Shown: piece by piece, positions 33,376-59,930 of the stretch
Layout of the letters: each line of letters begins with the position of its first letter
Position numbering within the stretch: position 1 is the stretch's first letter
Assembly: GCA_951406725.2 (NCBI GenBank)
Contig: OX597826.1
Span: forward strand, 81,344,001-81,408,000
DNA: 64,000 nt
DNA from: Octopus vulgaris
Lineage: Eukaryota
Direction: 5' to 3'
Position numbers and translations under genes: made by a program
Notes under the pieces: generated by a model
Database searches by the model: none
What the model saw: the letters and a program-made list of their open reading frames with translations, nothing else
What the model was told of the DNA's origin: nothing

Positions 33376-35276
33376 GAGAAAGAATTTCCTTGTGGCGGGT
33401 AAGAGACATCTCTCAACTGTCATAAGCAAATCATAAAATATAGCATTTCATCACAGTATACTCTAAGACAGAAGTGTATCATGTGCTTGTCTATCTGGAT
33501 TGTGTATGTTATATGTATATATACTTTCAACAGGAGGATTTAGCCAATCATGTCTGTGTTATTCCATGAGAGAAAGACTGAGAAATCTCTCAACTGTAAG
33601 CATTCATACCTATGTCTGATACTAAGTAAGAAGGAACAAACAATTCATAAAATATAGTATTTCATTAATCTATACTATAAGACAAGTATATCATGTGCTC
33701 ATCTGGTTTGTGGGTACACTTTCTCTGTATGTTGTGTATATTCTTTCAGGTGTACTATCTTGATTATTGGTTTATCCTTATTGTATTTTATCAAGAGACC
33801 AATTCTGTTGTTGGTAATGTCTGTAATTTAAACTATGGCATGGTTCCTTCAGGTGTTTATGGTGAAAACTAATGTTAATTTGTCATTGTTGTATTAAACT
33901 TTGCATAAAAACGAAATTGGTGGAGCAATTTTTTTGAATTATCATCATCAGTGATTTTTCTATGTCCATTGACGATGCTGGAATGTGTTGGACCACTTCA
34001 TCATCATCATCATTTCTGGATGATGATTTTTATCTCAAGCATTTTGTCATTTCAAGTGTGAATTCCAGAGTTCTCACTGCAACAGTCTCTTTGTATTTTC
34101 ATATTAATTTGAACTCTAAATAAAAATGGTTTACTCTGAAATTATTCTCTTTTTATTTTTCAATAAGCAAGTCTTGTTTGCACGTTTTCTAAACTGGTTT
34201 TCACCGACTGTTTACTTTAAAGCCATTTAATTTATTGACACTGTTTGATACAAGATGTGATCTGATGTTACGAGGAAGTGAAAGAGATGTAAATAATAGG
34301 ATGATATTGTAGATGAAATGGTGATGACGGTGGCTTTGTAGTGGTGATGCAGTGAGTTGGTTGATGAGAGCCAAGTGAGAGGCTGTGTAAGGACAAGATA
34401 TTTCCCCATTCTCAGATGATATTGGTTTCAAATTTTGGCACAAGTCCGGCAACTTCAGGTGAGTCGGGGTTAAGTCGATTACATTGAGGCCAGAGTTCAA
34501 CTGGTACTTTTCTTATTGACCTGAATTGATGAGAGCAAAGTTGGCCTCAGCGGAATTTGAACCCAGAACATAAAGGCAGATGAAATGTCGCTGATCATGC
34601 TGCCAGATCACTGCTTTCAAGAATCCTCAGATAATATTAAAATGTGATATTACCATTATTTTACATTTATTTAAAAATATTGTGGTATAAAAACATATAA
34701 GATTGCTAATTGTATCAAAAATAAAGAACAGGATAATGCAGAACCTCTGCTTTATGAGTCATTGCAATATTCAGAAGCAGAATAAAGGAATTTGCTGCAA
34801 ATCTTCTTTCTTCTTTTGGGCAAATTCTGTTGAAACATCAAAGCATTGGTTCACTGGACAGACAACATTTCTCATTCACTCACGGTAAAAAGGCTTTTTC
34901 TAATATGAGTGCAGATTCTAATATTTAAGCTGTAAACAAAGAACCTGCATTTCATCATTTAACCATATTAGAAACAGAAAAAAGGAATATATTCTATGTG
35001 GGCGTAGTTTATATGATTCACTCTAAAATATTCAACAGGGTCAGTCGTTTCTTTTAAACTTGTTTGTTGTTAGCAATGGAGGTTGGTGGAGATGAGAAAA
35101 GCATTATTGAAAGATATTTCAGTTTATTGTATTTTAAGAACAATGGACAAAATAACTTTTGTCCACTTTTCCGTGGCCATAGCCAATTTCAACGTTTAAC
35201 AGTAACTTGACTTATTTTTCTCGTTATTTTCCCCTTTAACTTTTATTTATTTTTTTAAACACCTTATACTGAAAGA

Positions 35277-40744: not shown

Positions 40745-41860
40745 ATGGCAAAAAGCTTAGCAAAGTCTTCATATGAATGTGATGTCTGTAAAAAGTCATT
40801 AAGTTCAAGATGTAAACTAACTGCTCATGTACGTATTCATACAGGGGAGAAACCATATCACTGTGTTATCTGTGGTAAAATGTTCTGTAGATCTGATGAA
40901 TTAACTATTCATATACGTCTTCATACAGGAGAGAAACCATATCAGTGTGATATCTGTGGTCACTCGTTCATTCGTAAAGATATTTTAACTACACACAGAC
41001 GTATTCACACAGGAGAGAAACCATATCAGTGTGATATGTGCAGTAAATCATTTGCTAAAAGTACTAATTTAACTGATCACAAACGCATTCATACTGGAGA
41101 AAGACCATACCATTGTGATATCTGCGGTAAATCATTCAATCAAAATAACCAGTTAGTTAAACACAAACGCATTCATACAGGAGAAAAGCCTTATCAATGT
41201 GATACCTGTGACAAAGCATTCTCTCGTAATGCTGAGTTAATTGCTCACAAACACATTCATACAGGAGAAAAACCTTATCAATGTGATATCTGTGGTAAAT
41301 CATTCCGTCAAAATAACAAGTTAATTAAACACAAATGTATTCATACTGGAGAAAAGCGATTTCATTGTGATGTTTGTGGAAAAGCATTCTCTCAGAGTAC
41401 GACTGTAAAAATGCACAAACGTATTCATACCAGAGAAAAACCATATCACTGTGATATCTGTGAGAAATCATTCATTCGAAGTAATGATTTAGAGGTCCAT
41501 AAGCGCATTCATTCTGGAGAAAAACCATATCATTGTGATATCTGTGGTAAATCGTACGCACAAAGTAGTGCCTTAAATTATCATAAACACATCCATACTG
41601 GAGAGGCACCATATCAGTGTAATATCTGCGGTAAATCATTCCCTACAAATAATTCCCTGAGTGGTCATAAACGTATTCATACTGGGGAAACACCGTATCA
41701 TTGTGATATCTGTGGTAAATCTTTCTCTCAAAGTACTGCTGTAACTGTCCATAAACGTATTCATACAGGAGAGAAGCCATATCATTGTGATATCTGTGGT
41801 AAATCATTCAATCAAAATAACCACTTAATTAAACACAAACGTATTCATACAGGAGAATAG
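40745..41860 (+). CDS. C2H2 zinc-finger gene 5, 371 aa, 13 fingers, ending at TAG in a linker
   Basis: ORF ends HTGE*. Confidence 0.88.
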
Positions 41861-42476
41861 CCCTATCACTGTGATATCTGTGACAAATCATTCTCTCGTA
41901 ATGATGAGTTAATTGCTCACAAACATGTTCATACAGGAGAGAAACCATGTTGCTGTAATATCTGTGATAAGTTGTTCCCTGTAAATAATGCCTTGACTCT
42001 ACACAAACGTATTCATATTAAAAGAAAGTGATATACTTGTGGTAAAGTGTTTGTTCAAAGTTTTGGTTTACAGGGACATAAAATCATTCATTCTAGAGAA
42101 ATTCTATATCGTGGTATTTGTGGCAAAGCATTTTGGCAAAGTCCTTGTGTGACTGTACACAAACGCATTCATACAAGAGAAAAGCCATCATTCCGTCAAA
42201 GAGATACTTTGCACGATCACAAACGTATTCATACTGGAGAAAAACCAGATGAATATGATGTCTGTGGTAAATCATTTATTCCGAGTAACCATTGAAAGGG
42301 ACATAACCATATTGATAGTGGAGAAAATGCCTAGCATTGTGATATCTTTGGCACGTCATTCTCTTACCGTAAGCAGTTCACTGAGCACAAATATATTCAT
42401 ATCAGTGCAATATGTCTGTGGTGAGTCCTTCTCTCAACAGCATGATTTAGCTCTTCATTTCTGTATTCCTCTATGA
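41861..42476 (+). pseudogene. Post-stop finger tail of gene 5 (two in-frame fingers to TGA 42029-42031, then decayed)
   Basis: [24 protein letters not shown]...; frameshifted remnants end HFCIPL*. Confidence 0.8.
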
Positions 42477-43555
42477 GAGAAAGAAGTACCTTGTGCAAGT
42501 TAAGAGGCTAAAACATCTCTCAACTGTAAGCATTCATATCTATGTCTGATACTAAATAAGAAGGAACAAACAATTCATAAAATATAGTATTTCATTAATC
42601 TATACTATAAGACAAGTATATCATGTGCTCATCTGGTTTGTGGGTACACTTTCTCTGTATGTTGTGTATATTCTTTCAGGTGTACTATCTTGATTATTGG
42701 TTTATCCTTATTGTATTTTATCAAGAGACCAATTCTGTTGTTGGTAATGTCTGTAATTTAAACTATGGCATGGTTCCTTCAGGTGTTTACGGTGAAAACT
42801 AATGTTAATTTGTCATTGTCGTATTAAACTTTGCATAAAAACGAAATTGGTGGAGCAATTTTTTTGAATTATCATCATCAGTGATTTTTCTATGTCCATT
42901 GACGATGCTGGAATGTGTTGGACCACATCATCATCATCATCAGTTCTGGATGATGATTTTTATCTCAAGCATTTTGTCATTTCAAGTGTGAATTCCAGAG
43001 TTCTCACTGCAACAGTCTCTTTGTATTTTCATATTAATTTGAACTCTAAATAAAAATGGTTTACTCTGAAATTATTCTCTTTTTATTTTTCAATAAGCAA
43101 GTGTTGTTTGCACGTTTTCTAAACTGGTTTTCACCGACTGTTTACTTTAAAGCCATTTAATTTATTGACACTGTTTGATACAAGGTGTGATCTGATGTTA
43201 CAAGGAAGTGAATGAGATGTAAATAATTGGATGATATTGTAGATGAAATGGTGATGACGGTGGCTTTGTAGTGGTGATGCAGTGAGTTGGTTGATGAGAG
43301 CCAAGTGAGAGGCTGTCTAAGGACAAGATATTTCCCCATTCTCAGATAATATTGGTTTCAAATTTTGGCACAATGCCAGCAAATTCAGGGAATGGTACTT
43401 TTCTTATTGACCTTAATTGGTGAGAGCAAAGTTGACTTTGGTGGAGATTGAACCCTGAACATAAAGGCAGATGAAATGTTTGCTGAGCATTTCATCTGAT
43501 GTACTTATCATTCTTCCAGGTCACAGCCTTCAAATATTGTCAGATAATATTAAAA

Positions 43556-44409: not shown

Positions 44410-44748
44410 ATACAAAATGAGAAAATGGAGAAACATACTTAAATCAATCAAACATCAACCATCAGATAATACCCAATCAATACTTTATTACACCATTACA
44501 TAACAGCAAAGGCATTATACAAAATATATTGTAACTATAATTAGACAAGGAAATAGAAATATAAAATACAATTACAAATGTAAATGTAATTGTATTTTAT
44601 ATTTCTATTTCCTTGTCTAATTATAGTTACAATATATTTTGTATAATGCCTTTGCTGTTATGTAATGGTGTAATAAAGTATTGATTGGGTATCATCTGAT
44701 GGTTGATGTTTGATTGATTTAAGTATGTCTCTCCATTTTCTAATTTTG

Positions 44749-44751
<3 letters not shown>
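44410..44751. repeat. Near-perfect 342-bp palindrome (167-bp arms, 8-nt loop)
   Basis: Arms 44410-44576 and 44585-44751; about 3 mismatches by eye. Confidence 0.92.
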
Positions 44752-47915: not shown

Positions 47916-49031
47916 ATGGCAAAAAGCTTAGCAAAGTCTTCTTACGAATGTGATGTCTGTAAAAAGTCATTAAGTTCAAGAGGTACACTAACTGCTCATG
48001 TACGTATTCATACAGGAGAGAAACCATATCACTGTGTTATCTGTGGTAAAAGATTCACTAGAACAGATGACTTGACTGTTCATGTACGTGCTCATACAGG
48101 AGAGAAGCCATATCAGTGTGATATCTGTGGTCAGTCGTTCACTCGTACAGATATTTTAACCACACACAAACGTATTCACACAGGAGAGAAACCATATCAA
48201 TGTGATATGTGCAGTAAATCATTCGCTAAAAGTACCAACTTAACTGATCACAAACGCATTCATACTGGAGAAAGACCATACCATTGTGATATCTGCGGTA
48301 AATCATTCAATCAAAATAACCAGTTAGTTAAACACAAACGCATTCATACAGGAGAAAAGCCTTATCAATGTGATACCTGTGACAAAGCATTCTCTCGTAA
48401 TGCTGAGTTAATTGCTCACAAATACATTCATACAGGAGAAAAACCTTATCAGTGTGATATCTGTGGTAAATCATTCCGTCAAAATAACAAGTTAATTAAA
48501 CACAAATGTATTCATACTGGAGAAAAACGATTTCATTGTGATGTTTGTGGAAAAGCATTCTCTCAGAGTACGGATGTGAAAATGCACAAACGTATTCATA
48601 CCAGAGAAAAACCATATCACTGTGATATCTGTGGTAAATCATTCATTCGAAGTAATGATTTAGAGGTCCATAAGCGCTTTCATACTGGAGAAAAACCACA
48701 TCATTGTGATATCTGTGGTAAATCATTCACACGAAGTAGTGCCTTAAATTCTCATAAACGCATCCATACTGGAGAGGCACCATATCAGTGTAATATCTGC
48801 GGTAAATCATTCCCTACAAATAATTCCTTGAGTGGTCATAAACGTATTCATACTGGGGAAACACCGTATCATTGTGATATCTGTGGTAAATCTTTCTCTC
48901 AAAGTACTGCTGTAACTGTACATAAACGTATTCATACAGGAGAGAAGCCATATCACTGTGATATCTGTGGTAAATCATTCAGTCGAAATAACCACTTAAC
49001 TAGACACAAACGTATTCATACAGGAGAATAG
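47916..49031 (+). CDS. C2H2 zinc-finger gene 6, 371 aa, 13 fingers, TAG in a linker
   Basis: ORF ends HTGE*; two in-frame fingers to TGA 49200-49202; decayed tail to 49635. Confidence 0.88.
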   Translation: MAKSLAKSSYECDVCKKSLSSRGTLTAHVRIHTGEKPYHCVICGKRFTRTDDLTVHVRAHTGEKPYQCDICGQSFTRTDILTTHKRIHTGEKPYQCDMCSKSFAKSTNLTDHKRIHTGERPYHCDICGKSFNQNNQLVKHKRIHTGEKPYQCDTCDKAFSRNAELIAHKYIHTGEKPYQCDICGKSFRQNNKLIKHKCIHTGEKRFHCDVCGKAFSQSTDVKMHKRIHTREKPYHCDICGKSFIRSNDLEVHKRFHTGEKPHHCDICGKSFTRSSALNSHKRIHTGEAPYQCNICGKSFPTNNSLSGHKRIHTGETPYHCDICGKSFSQSTAVTVHKRIHTGEKPYHCDICGKSFSRNNHLTRHKRIHTGE

Positions 49032-49316
49032 CCCTATCACTGTGATATCTGTGACAAATCATTCTCTCGTAATGATGAGTTAATTGCTCACAAACATATT
49101 CATACAGGAGAGAAACCATGTTGCTGTAATATCTGTGATAAGTTGTTCCCTGTAAATAATGCCTTGACTCTACACAAACGTATTCATATTAGAGGAAAGT
49201 GATATATTTGTGGTAAAGTGTTTGTTCAAAGTTTTGATTTACAGGGACATAAAATCATAGAGAAATTCTATATCATGGTATTTGTGGCAAAGCATTTTGG
49301 CAAAGTCCTTGTGTGA

Positions 49317-53091: not shown

Positions 53092-55348
53092 CACCATCAT
53101 CATCATCATCATTTAGCGTCCATTCTCCATGCTAGCACGGGTTGGACAGTTCAACCGGGGTCTGGGAAGCCAGAAGGCTGCATCAGGCCCAGTCTGATCT
53201 GGCAATGTTTCTACAGCTGGATGCCCTTCCTAACGCCAACCACTCCGCGAGTGTAGTGGGTGCTTTTTACGTGCCACCGGCCACGTTCGGTTGGTGCTTT
53301 TAACGTGCCACCGGCACGGAAGCCAGTCGATGCGGCACTGTCATCGGCCTCGTTCGGATGGTGCTTTTTATATGCCACCGGCCCAAGTATCACAACTACT
53401 ATTTCCATTGATATTTATTTCGATGTTCATCTACTTGACTCAATAGGTTTCCTCAAGCACAGCGGGATGTTCTGGTATCGAAGGTACTTTGAATGGGCAG
53501 GGGCTATGCGGGACTGGTGCAGGAAGCAGCCCGGGCCTTTGCAGCGATCTCGGTCCTTCGTCATTGCCTGTGTGAGGCCGAACGCTCTGAGGTCATGCTT
53601 GACTACCTCATCCCATGTCTTCCTGGGTCTACCTCTCTCCCTGATACCTTCAACTGTTTGGCAGCGGCACTTCTTCACACATCTCTCCTCATCCATCCGC
53701 AGTACATGACCATACCATCGCAAGCGTCGGTCTTGCACACCACATCTGATGCTTCTTATGTCCAGCATTTCTCTCAGGGTGCTTACACTCGGTCGTGCGC
53801 GCACACTGACATTACACATCCAGCGGATCATGCTACCTTCATTTCTTTCAAGCCTACGCATGCCCTCTGCAGTCACAGCCCATGTTTCACTACCGTGAAG
53901 CATGGCAGTTTGCACACATGCATCGTACAATCTGCCTTTCACTCTGAGCGAGAGACCCTTTGTCGCCAGTAGGGGTAGGAGCTTTCTAAACTTTGCCCAG
54001 GCTATTCGTATTCTAGTGGTGACACTCTCTGAGCATCCCCCTCCACTACTAACTTGGTCACCTAGGTAGCGGAAACTATCTACTACTTCTAGTTTTTTCC
54101 CCTGAAGTGTAATGGAATCTGTTTTCTGAGCATCTGTGGTGTCTATTGTCCCTGTGCATCTGCTGCACATGAAAGCTATCTTATCAGTTAATTTCCCTTT
54201 GATGTTGCTGCACCTTTTATGCATCCATAGCTTACACTGGGTACATCTTATGGAGCTTCTACCTACACCTTTCCTACATATCGAGCAGGGCCACCTGCCC
54301 GAGGGTGTGTGTGCTGAGTTCGCCTTTCTGCTTACTATAACTTTGGTCTTTGCTACATTTACTGTAAGGCCCTTTGATTCTAACCCTTGCTTCCACACCC
54401 AAAATTTCTTTTCTAGTTCCGGTAGTGATTCTGCTATGAGAGCCAGGTCATCAGCATAGAGGAGCTCCCAGGGGCAACCTGTTTTGAATTCCTCTGTTAT
54501 TGCCTGGAGGACTATGATGAATAAAAGGGGACTGAGGGCTGAGCCTTGGTGTACACCTACTTCTACCCGGAATTTTTCACTATATTCGTTGCCAATTCTA
54601 ACCTTGCTGACAGCCTCTCTGTATAAGGCCTGTACAGCCCTTATTAGCCATTTGTCAATCTCCAGTTTCCGCATCAACCACCAGATAAGGGATCGGTGGA
54701 CCCTGTCAAAGGCTTTCTCCAAGTCCACAAAAGCTATGTAGAGGGGTTTATCATTAGCTAGGTACTTCTCCTGCAGTTGTCGGACCAAGAATATAGAATC
54801 AGTGGTGCTTCTACCTGGCACAAATCCGAACTGCATCTCATCTAAGCAAATTCTCTCCCTAATGAGATGGGTTATAACCCTCTCTGTGACCTTCATCACC
54901 TGATCCAACAGTTTAATACCCCTGTAGTTATTTCTATCTAGAGCATCACCCTTACCCTTGTAGCAGTTGACTATGGTGCTGCTACGCCAGTCATTGGGTA
55001 TGATTCCAATATGAACTACCTGGTTTACAATGCGGGTGACTAGGCCATAGCCCACATAACCAACTGTTTTAAGCATCTCAGCAGTGATACCTGATGGGCC
55101 AGGGGCTTTACCTGGTTTCATACCCTTAATTGCCTTAACTACAAGGGAGCTGTCTATTCGGATAGCTGGTCCCTCTACTGGGTCAACATTTGGCAGGCTC
55201 TCCTCCTCCCATTCATTCTCCACATTCAGCAGTCTTTCATAATGGCTTCTCCAAGCCTCTTTCTTTTCACCAACATTAAAAGCAAGTGCCCCGTCATCCA
55301 TGCGGACACATTTCTCTCCTGTAACATTACTATTTTCTCTCACACACT
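53092..55348 (-). mobile_element. Young 5'-truncated RTE LINE
   Basis: (CAT)n tail, 3' UTR repeats, long open RT frame. Confidence 0.95.
53427..55343 (-). CDS. RTE reverse transcriptase ORF fragment (638 aa; no endonuclease; PHD insert)
   Basis: KAPGPSG, NYRGIKLL, QFGF, FVDLEKAFD, GVHQGSALSPLLF, YADD, FRYLG; no true start, and the C-terminus is likely frameshifted. Confidence 0.85.
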   Translation of the reverse strand: MRENSNVTGEKCVRMDDGALAFNVGEKKEAWRSHYERLLNVENEWEEESLPNVDPVEGPAIRIDSSLVVKAIKGMKPGKAPGPSGITAEMLKTVGYVGYGLVTRIVNQVVHIGIIPNDWRSSTIVNCYKGKGDALDRNNYRGIKLLDQVMKVTERVITHLIRERICLDEMQFGFVPGRSTTDSIFLVRQLQEKYLANDKPLYIAFVDLEKAFDRVHRSLIWWLMRKLEIDKWLIRAVQALYREAVSKVRIGNEYSEKFRVEVGVHQGSALSPLLFIIVLQAITEEFKTGCPWELLYADDLALIAESLPELEKKFWVWKQGLESKGLTVNVAKTKVIVSRKANSAHTPSGRWPCSICRKGVGRSSIRCTQCKLWMHKRCSNIKGKLTDKIAFMCSRCTGTIDTTDAQKTDSITLQGKKLEVVDSFRYLGDQVSSGGGCSESVTTRIRIAWAKFRKLLPLLATKGLSLRVKGRLYDACVQTAMLHGSETWAVTAEGMRRLERNEGSMIRWMCNVSVRARPSVSTLREMLDIRSIRCGVQDRRLRWYGHVLRMDEERCVKKCRCQTVEGIRERGRPRKTWDEVVKHDLRAFGLTQAMTKDRDRCKGPGCFLHQSRIAPAHSKYLRYQNIPLCLRKPIESSR

Positions 55349-58494: not shown

Positions 58495-59694
58495 ATGGCA
58501 AAAAGCTTAGCAAAGTCTTCATATGAATGTGATGTCTGTAAAAAGTCATTAAGTTCAAGAGGTACACTAACTGCTCATGTACGTATTCATACAGGAGAGA
58601 AACCATATCACTGTGTTATCTGTGGTAAAAGATTCACTAGAACAGATGACTTGACTGTTCATGTACGTGCTCATACAGGAGAGAAACCATATCAGTGTGA
58701 TATCTGTGGTCAGTCGTTCACTCGTACAGATATTTTAACCACACACAAACGTATTCACACAGGAGAGAAACCATATCAATGTGATATGTGCAGTAAATCA
58801 TTCGCTAAAAGTACCAACTTAACTGATCACAAACGCATTCATACTGGAGAAAGACCATACCATTGTGATATCTGCGGTAAATCATTCAATCAAAATAACC
58901 AGTTAGTTAAACACAAACGCATTCATACAGGAGAAAAGCCTTATCAATGTGATACCTGTGACAAAGCATTCTCTCGTAATGCTGAGTTAATTGCTCACAA
59001 ATACATTCATACAGGAGAAAACCCTTATCAATGTGATATCTGTGGTAAATCATTCCGTCAAAATAACAAGTTAATTAAACACAAACGTATTCATACTGGA
59101 GAAAAACGATTTCATTGTGATGTTTGTGGTAAAGCATTCTCTCAGAGTACGGATGTGAAAATGCACAAACGTATTCATACCAGAGAAAAACAATATCACT
59201 GTGATATCTGTGGTAAATCATTCATTCGAAGTAAAGATTTAGAGGTCCATAAGCACATTCATTCTGGAGAAAAACCATATGATTGTGATATCTGTGGTAA
59301 ATCGTACGCACAAAGTAGTGCCTTAAATTCTCATAAACACATCCATACTGGAGAGGCACCATATCAGTGTAATATCTGCGGTAAATCATTCCCTACAAAT
59401 AATTCCCTGAGTGGTCATAAACGTATTCATACTGGGGAAACACCGTATCATTGTGATATCTGTGGTAAATCTTTCTCTCAAAGTACTGCTGTAACTGTAC
59501 ATAAACGTATTCATACAGGAGAGAAGCCATATTATTGTGATATCTGTGGTAAATCTTTCTCTCGAAGTACTGCTGTAACTGTACATAAACGTATTCATAC
59601 AGGAGAGAAGCCCTATCACTGTGATATCTGTGGTAAATCATTCAATCGAAATAGCCACGTAACTAGACACAAACGTATTCATACAGGAGAATAG
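58495..59694 (+). CDS. C2H2 zinc-finger gene 7, 399 aa, 14 fingers, TAG in a linker
   Basis: One extra 84-bp finger relative to genes 5 and 6; two in-frame fingers to TGA 59863-59865; decayed tail to 60298. Confidence 0.88.
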   Translation: MAKSLAKSSYECDVCKKSLSSRGTLTAHVRIHTGEKPYHCVICGKRFTRTDDLTVHVRAHTGEKPYQCDICGQSFTRTDILTTHKRIHTGEKPYQCDMCSKSFAKSTNLTDHKRIHTGERPYHCDICGKSFNQNNQLVKHKRIHTGEKPYQCDTCDKAFSRNAELIAHKYIHTGENPYQCDICGKSFRQNNKLIKHKRIHTGEKRFHCDVCGKAFSQSTDVKMHKRIHTREKQYHCDICGKSFIRSKDLEVHKHIHSGEKPYDCDICGKSYAQSSALNSHKHIHTGEAPYQCNICGKSFPTNNSLSGHKRIHTGETPYHCDICGKSFSQSTAVTVHKRIHTGEKPYYCDICGKSFSRSTAVTVHKRIHTGEKPYHCDICGKSFNRNSHVTRHKRIHTGE

Positions 59695-59930
59695 CCCTAT
59701 CACTGTGATATCTGTGACAAATCATTCGCTCGTAATGATGAGTTAATTGCTCACAAACATATTCATACAGGAGAGAAACCATGTTGCTGTAATATCTGTG
59801 ATAAGTTGTTCCCTGTAAATAATGCCTTGTCTCTACACAAACGTATTCATATTAGAGGAAAGTGATATATTTGTGGTAAAGTGTTTGTTCAAAGTTTTGG
59901 TTTACAGGGACATAAAATCATTCATTCTAG

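What the first reader, a model, noticed from the sequence alone, without database searches (positions are those of the whole stretch)
41858..42031. Shared amber stop in a finger linker followed by two intact fingers: possible RNA-editing or readthrough switch
Seen: genes 5, 6 and 7 all end GGA-GAA-TAG-CCC-TAT (TGE*PY; TAG at 41858, 49029, 59692). Each continues in frame for 56 codons with two fingers that retain all Cys/His ligands before a TGA, and only beyond that do frameshifts and deletions accumulate. Known: UAG is the preferred ADAR triplet, UAG to UIG reads as Trp (HDV amber/W site), and coleoids recode heavily. Inference: editing could toggle 13/14-finger versus 15/16-finger isoforms. 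Alternative: the TAG is simply the most recent truncation, inherited through duplication.
Basis: partly seen in the sequence, partly recalled or inferred. Interest (0 to 1): 0.7.

Follow-up and report, generated by a model that had tools for sequence, protein, structure and literature searches.

The report
Stop codon buried in RNA hairpin
Four recently duplicated zinc-finger genes, likely of an octopus, share one early stop codon that sits in a predicted RNA hairpin; sequencing assemblies show only the unedited stop, so it is likely the working end of the protein, though low-level editing that would add a finger is not excluded.

Summary
A single AAG>TAG change was copied into four genes whose 3' flanks differ by 0.6-1.8%. 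Linker stops followed by ligand-bearing fingers also occur with TAA and TGA, and amber is not enriched by origin. The 56 codons show 5 amino-acid-changing and 0 silent differences among copies. Only finger +1 is pristine; finger +2 has lost its conserved aromatic residue. No A>G appears at the stop in contigs of 7 presumed RNA runs, and unedited depth roughly equals tail depth; the floor is about 10-70%. New: the UAG lies in a predicted 136-nt hairpin more stable than 242 of 242 matched coding windows, and family-private substitutions zip it up (0 of 500 nulls). A second stem region past the TGA shows the same gain, so the structure is not specific to the UAG. Verdict: likely a truncation with a former coding tail reshaped into a structured 3' UTR (0.55). 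A functional editing switch remains possible (0.2). The scan's earlier notes hold nothing on this DNA.

The parts
40745..41860 (+). Gene 5 ORF, 371 aa, 13 C2H2 fingers, ends TGE-TAG
41858..41860 (+). Amber stop from the linker Lys codon (AAG>TAG); editable A would be 41859
   Evidence: 12 of 12 closest paralog windows have A at 41858
41861..42031 (+). 56-codon in-frame extension plus TGA (42029-42031)
41870..41932 (+). Finger +1, a pristine copy of the family's finger-6 type; 5' arm and loop of hairpin 1
41954..42016 (+). Finger +2, finger-7 type; ligands kept, framework degraded; its 5' half is the 3' arm of hairpin 1
41848..41983 (+). Hairpin 1 (predicted), 47 pairs, -43.5 kcal/mol; UAG pairs with 41972-41974 as U.G, A-U, G.U
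42105..42255 (+). Second stem region (predicted) in the decayed tail past the TGA; 14 of 15 private changes fall in Watson-Crick pairs
42032..42476 (+). Decayed finger tail (+3 onward) ending at the family's old stop (TGA 42474-42476); covered by contigs of presumed RNA runs
43049..43054 (+). AATAAA, candidate polyadenylation signal (inferred)
47916..49202 (+). Gene 6: ORF to TAG 49029-49031 (13 fingers), extension to TGA 49200-49202
58495..59865 (+). Gene 7: ORF to TAG 59692-59694 (14 fingers), extension to TGA 59863-59865; gene 8 outside the window is identical in both

Best explanation
One AAG-to-TAG change, shared by four recent tandem copies, is likely the working stop and the latest step in shortening this zinc-finger gene, and the former coding tail behind it has likely been reshaped by selection into a base-paired 3' untranslated region, with at most minor editing of the stop. 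Steps: (1) Shown: the tail is an internal repeat of the family's fingers 6, 7, 8 onward, and decay begins in finger +2, not at the TAG. (2) Inferred: the ancestral gene ended at the TGA after finger +2, and finger +1 was translated until recently. (3) Shown by folding: tail substitutions closed mismatches in stems that the finger repeat already half-forms. (4) Inferred: this reflects selection on the RNA, most likely to bind double-stranded-RNA proteins or mask repeat-borne regulatory sites and so set transcript level. (5) Shown by folding: the A>T that made the TAG itself adds 4.3 kcal/mol to hairpin 1. (6) Shown: the unit was then duplicated to four copies. The bulk product would be the 13- or 14-finger protein.
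For: One origin. No amber excess by origin: 4 TAG origins per 3024 AAG linkers against 4 TAA origins per 4168 AAA, P=0.73 (origins grouped by hand). TAA loci L063 and L064 carry 55 codons with two ligand-bearing fingers. No A>G row at the stop in 7 of 7 presumed RNA runs; unedited depth over tail depth is 0.71-1.40. Extension: 5 nonsynonymous, 0 synonymous, against ORF pN/pS 0.42-0.57. Stem gain of the same size past the TGA: -22.0 to -41.6 kcal/mol, 0 of 500 nulls. G.U pairs are left between closed mismatches (41860-41972, 42149-42172), which fits RNA pairing rather than one copied DNA tract. No comparable gain in 11 windows from 8 other truncated loci, best 2 of 150.
Against: Finger +1 has 0 private changes in 72 nt against 49 in 459 nt further down (Fisher P=0.0008); this reading needs the TAG to be late and hairpin 1 to have tightened while still coding. 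Four of the five stabilising changes in hairpin 1 lie on the 3' arm, sparing finger +1, as an editing model predicts. Contigs drop minor variants, tissues are unknown, and the detection floor is about 10-70% of gene depth. What the stems do is not shown. Two of four tail windows show no gain (358 and 383 of 500). The null test is mildly lenient: 6 of 35 coding controls reach 5% or less. 5:0 is a small sample (P=0.35 under neutrality).
Confidence: 0.55

Rival explanations
1. Editing switch: ADAR edits UAG to UIG (Trp) in hairpin 1 in some cells. Finger +2 was sacrificed to become the complementary strand, finger +1 is kept as protein, and the second stem region may act as an editing inducer element.
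For: UAG paired at 0.996. Window more stable than 242 of 242 coding windows. 5 of 6 private changes stabilise it, 0 of 500 nulls; 1-9 of 1200 with a more cautious ancestor. Finger +1 pristine. TGEWP linkers with 6-7 fingers downstream in open frames at L067-L069. Coleoid editomes contain UAG>UGG events (PMC8382921, passages). TAG also present in organism B.
Against: No A>G in contigs of 7 runs; in X13 the unedited 61-nt contig has depth 111 against 105 for the tail. The target A is in an A-U pair between two wobble pairs, not the A.C mismatch ADARs prefer (preference recalled). Genes 7 and 8 carry a change that weakens the hairpin to -39.1. The best duplex partner of the stop region is no stronger than those of ordinary linkers. 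The 301-nt fold has z=-1.58 against shuffles. The other amber origins have no stable hairpin.
Confidence: 0.2
2. [quoted passage not shown]
For: Most stabilising changes make Watson-Crick pairs, including doublets at 42135-42136 and 42146-42147. The antisense strand also folds well, -37.4 and -37.5. Template switching extends inverted repeats in yeast and humans (PMC3820800, PMC5453318; search listing).
Against: G.T pairs stay unconverted between converted sites, so no single tract explains them. Eleven windows from other truncated loci show no such gain.
Confidence: 0.17
3. Ribosomal readthrough of UAG-C, helped by the upper part of hairpin 1, makes a minor 15/16-finger form without editing.
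For: UAG followed by C; a stem remains from about +12 nt once the ribosome sits on the stop; finger +1 pristine; unedited RNA is what this model predicts.
Against: The C follows automatically from the Pro codon of every linker. The context matches neither UGA-CUAG nor UAG-CAR-YYA (motifs recalled). No purifying signal among copies.
Confidence: 0.08

Closest known systems
Lineage-specific tandem C2H2 zinc-finger clusters of coleoids (PMC9068888, passages)
   Same: Tandem poly-finger genes with TGEKPY linkers; recent whole-gene duplication and finger gain or loss.
   Different: The passages seen describe no post-stop finger tail folded into stems.
Stop-loss A-to-I editing, UAG>UGG, in coleoid editomes (PMC8382921, passages)
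   Same: In-frame UAG between two coding-like stretches, in an animal group with high ADAR activity.
   Different: No editing seen here; that paper's site tables were not seen.
Restorative editing of premature stops in Fusarium (PMC10776026, abstract; PMC4817773, search listing)
   Same: Premature UAG in a protein-coding gene that editing would turn into Trp.
   Different: Fungal editing is ADAR-independent and shown. Here the ancestral codon was Lys, so editing would not restore it, and editing is not shown.
Hepatitis delta virus amber/W site (recalled; one search returned nothing)
   Same: UAG in an imperfect rod-like stem; Trp plus a C-terminal extension.
   Different: Amber/W has an A.C mismatch and measured editing; here the A is predicted in an A-U pair.
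Editing inducer elements (PMC5654063, abstract)
   Same: A second stem near a candidate site.
   Different: Those are long conserved stems beside proven sites; here short irregular stems altered by copy-specific deletions.

Membership tests
ADAR stop-loss editing site | In-frame UAG followed by an open, coding-like extension | tested here: met
   56 codons, two ligand sets
ADAR stop-loss editing site | Target A inside a double-stranded stem | tested here: met
   Predicted only: pairing 0.996; -43.5 against a coding minimum of -40.2
ADAR stop-loss editing site | A>G in RNA but not in DNA | tested here: inconclusive
   No A>G in contigs of 7 presumed RNA runs; floor about 10-70%; tissues unknown; no raw reads
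ADAR stop-loss editing site | Purifying selection on the extension | tested here: inconclusive
   5 nonsynonymous, 0 synonymous among copies, but finger +1 has 0 private changes in 72 nt
ADAR stop-loss editing site | Site and stem conserved across species with compensatory changes | tested here: inconclusive
   TAG present in organism B; not among listed pieces for organism C; no ortholog found in protein searches
ADAR stop-loss editing site | Extended protein detected | not testable with these tools
   No ribosome profiling or proteomics at hand
Programmed stop-codon readthrough | Known readthrough motif at the stop | tested here: not met
   TAG-CCCTAT; reference motifs recalled
Truncated tandem C2H2 paralog with decayed tail | Single nonsense change shared by descent; finger remnants downstream to the old stop | tested here: met
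Truncated tandem C2H2 paralog with decayed tail | Downstream sequence evolves without constraint | tested here: not met
   Two tail windows show non-random stem gain, 0 of 500 each
Described RNA family (Rfam) | Match at gathering score | tested here: not met
   Two weak hits outside the stems, below gathering score

The most novel reading that the evidence does not exclude
A transcription factor gene turned its own spare zinc-finger repeat into the editing guide for an amber codon, so ADAR activity sets the number of DNA-binding fingers cell by cell, with a second repeat-derived stem acting as enhancer.
Probability: 0.2. Interest if true: 0.8.

Novelty: new variant of a known kind. Interest (0 to 1): 0.42.

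Why it matters
If the switch is real, it links two hallmark features of coleoid genomes, the C2H2 expansion and heavy RNA editing, and shows an editing site being built from the self-complementarity of finger repeats. If not, the locus still shows a dead coding tail apparently recycled into structured UTR over a short time, with named base changes that can be tested. One RT-PCR amplicon separates the two.

Tried and rejected
Three independent conserved stops: rejected, one origin. Amber enrichment: site counts suggest it (12 against 5, P=0.025) but it vanishes by origin (P=0.73). A long-range complementary sequence within 6 kb or among inverted repeats: none better than controls, and none of the 25 longest inverted repeats touches the gene. 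A>G rows in laid contigs as editing: 41402, 41820, 42021, 42023, 60155, 60322 and 60379 match genomic alleles of genes 5-8; 41817 matches none of the four and shares its contig depth with other paralog-type differences, so it was read as a paralog. Stem gain as a general property of dead finger tails: not seen. Reverse-transcribed editing as the source of tail changes: only 9 of 49 private changes are A>G (counted). No RNA holder is listed on record as RNA. Exact protein look-up: none of 3 found. Protein searches returned generic finger proteins and no ortholog. Supplement of PMC8382921: no hits for 3 terms, site tables not seen. Liscovitch-Brauer 2017 was not held under the id tried; its site lists may bear on this. 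No joint with GT..AG ends among those shown (lists cut).

Full report
Setting. The window is G000:C13:81344001-81408000 of a 2.8-Gb, 227-contig genome. The window holds seven plus-strand C2H2 genes; 17 such genes lie in the 204 kb examined.

Observation. Genes 5, 6 and 7 end GGA-GAA-TAG-CCC-TAT at 41858, 49029 and 59692, after 13, 13 and 14 fingers, and run 56 codons to TGA. A fourth copy lies at window-equivalent 70368. The 3' flanks differ by 0.6-1.8%, and genes 7 and 8 are identical over ORF and extension. The TAG is therefore one mutation of a linker AAG.

Base rate. Genome-wide exact patterns give 3024 AAG and 4168 AAA linkers, 12 TAG, 5 TAA and 3 TGA, and 5 TGG with a shorter pattern. 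Grouped by hand into origins, TAG and TAA are 4 each (P=0.73; by site P=0.025). Two TAA loci carry 55 codons with two ligand-bearing fingers, and L022 has a TAG followed by further fingers. The anatomy is thus not special to amber.

The extension. It is an internal repeat of the family's fingers 6 and 7, followed by remnants of later fingers to the old stop. Among copies it shows 5 nonsynonymous and 0 synonymous differences, while ORF pN/pS is 0.42-0.57; 5:0 has P=0.35 under neutrality. Changes absent from the six closest paralog units number 1 and 2 in fingers 12 and 13, 1 in unit +1 (the TAG), then 6, 7, 9, 4, 11 and 12. Decay starts about 90 nt after the TAG. Finger +1 is as clean as translated fingers (0 of 72 against 49 of 459, P=0.0008). 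Distal fingers have fewer close relatives, which may inflate their counts. Either the TAG is late, or finger +1 is still translated at times.

Structure. The UAG lies in a predicted rod, 41848-41983, pairing U.G, A-U, G.U with 41972-41974, at probability 0.996 in 900 nt of context. The 151-nt window folds at -43.5 kcal/mol for genes 5 and 6 and -39.1 for gene 7. The 242 same-register coding windows have mean -27.3 and minimum -40.2; the window length was chosen after seeing the hairpin. The register already exists in paralogs. Five of six private changes stabilise it, including the TAG (+4.3), with 0 of 500 nulls as stable and 4, 1 and 9 of 1200 under a more cautious ancestor. Against: z=-1.58 for the 301-nt region against shuffles, and a best duplex no stronger than for ordinary linkers. 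On 35 of 64 eligible coding windows the test is mildly lenient (6 at 5% or less, minimum z -2.95); hairpin 1 has z about -3.8.

The control that changes the reading. Window 42105-42255, past the TGA, goes from -22.0 to -41.6 (0 of 500; z about -4.5), with 14 of 15 private changes in Watson-Crick pairs; alignment near deletions is less certain there. Two other tail windows show nothing (358 and 383 of 500). A coding window just upstream, with 3 changes, gave 2 of 500. Eleven windows from 8 other truncated loci show no comparable gain (best 2 of 150), and the other amber origins have no stable hairpin. So stem gain belongs to this family's tail, not only to the UAG. G.U pairs left between closed mismatches favour selection on RNA over copied DNA tracts (inference).

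Reads. Only assembled contigs were available, for runs guessed to be RNA, of unknown tissue; 8 of the 24 listed runs were laid, and no silent stretch was laid as a control. No A>G row appears at the stop's A in X1, X2, X3, X11, X13, X4 (organism A) or X10 (organism B). Unedited depth over tail depth is 1.40, 0.91, 1.21, 0.86, 1.06, 0.71 and 1.35. Rows need 1% of a pile that includes paralogs, which puts the floor near 10% (X10) to 70% (X11), and contigs drop minor variants. Majority editing is unlikely in these libraries; 5-20% is not excluded. Organism B carries the TAG (62-nt contig, no differences). For organism C (X15, likely DNA) no TAG contig is among the listed pieces.

Mechanism. Best supported (0.55): the TAG is the working stop and the latest truncation, and the tail is a 3' UTR selected for stems. 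The stems' role, binding dsRNA proteins or masking repeat-borne sites, is inferred. Rivals: editing switch (0.2), templated mutation without function (0.17), ribosomal readthrough (0.08). Trp is tolerated in this linker: 3 of 5 TGG loci have 6-7 fingers downstream in frame.

Literature. PMC8382921 (passages; supplement searched without hits) treats UAG>UGG stop-loss edits as real in coleoid editomes. [quoted passage not shown] PMC5654063 and PMC10776026 were seen as abstracts; PMC4817773, PMC5453318 and PMC3820800 as search listings. HDV amber/W, the ADAR mismatch preference and readthrough motifs are recalled. Searches listed no paper on this locus or on editing-gated finger number; published site tables were not seen. 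The scan's notes have no look-alike. Note e1-8672752 prompted the A>G count (9 of 49), which does not fit inherited editing; note e1-8672229 was used only for the organism label.

Verdict. The feature is real and of single origin, and editing is not shown. The non-random stem gain around and beyond the stop is the part worth following. Interest 0.42.

Noticed in passing
L052 (G000:C29:22770198-22770470, minus strand): Four TGE-TAG linkers in tandem at 84-nt spacing: a finger unit containing its stop was amplified after the gene's first stop.
   Followed up: partly
L066-L069 (G000:C28:5.47-5.52 Mb): Genomic TGEWP linkers inside open finger arrays, so Trp at the linker Lys is tolerated.
   Followed up: partly
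window 41933-42391: 22 of 49 private changes in the tail go to G on the sense strand (9 A>G, 13 from C or T); cause unexplained.
   Followed up: no
window 33585-34459 against 42515-43389: Gene 4's 3' flank is 98% identical to that of gene 5 although their coding parts are about 89% alike, suggesting recent conversion or patchwork duplication.
   Followed up: no
window 40745-41857, 47916-49028, 58495-59691: ORF divergence between copies (about 4.6% for genes 5 and 6) exceeds that of the 3' flank (1.8%), with many changes in recognition helices; conversion from paralogs or positive selection.
   Followed up: no
window 44410-44751: 167-nt inverted repeat, 98% complementary, 8-nt loop, about 2.5 kb downstream of gene 5.
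   Followed up: no
window 53427-55346, minus strand: 639-aa reverse-transcriptase-like open frame of a LINE (label from sequence motifs, not searched), repeated in the gene 7 and 8 duplication units.
   Followed up: no
L022 (G000:C13:75.23 Mb): Independent TAG at the Tyr of TGEKPY after 7 fingers, followed in frame by further finger remnants; no stem gain.
   Followed up: partly
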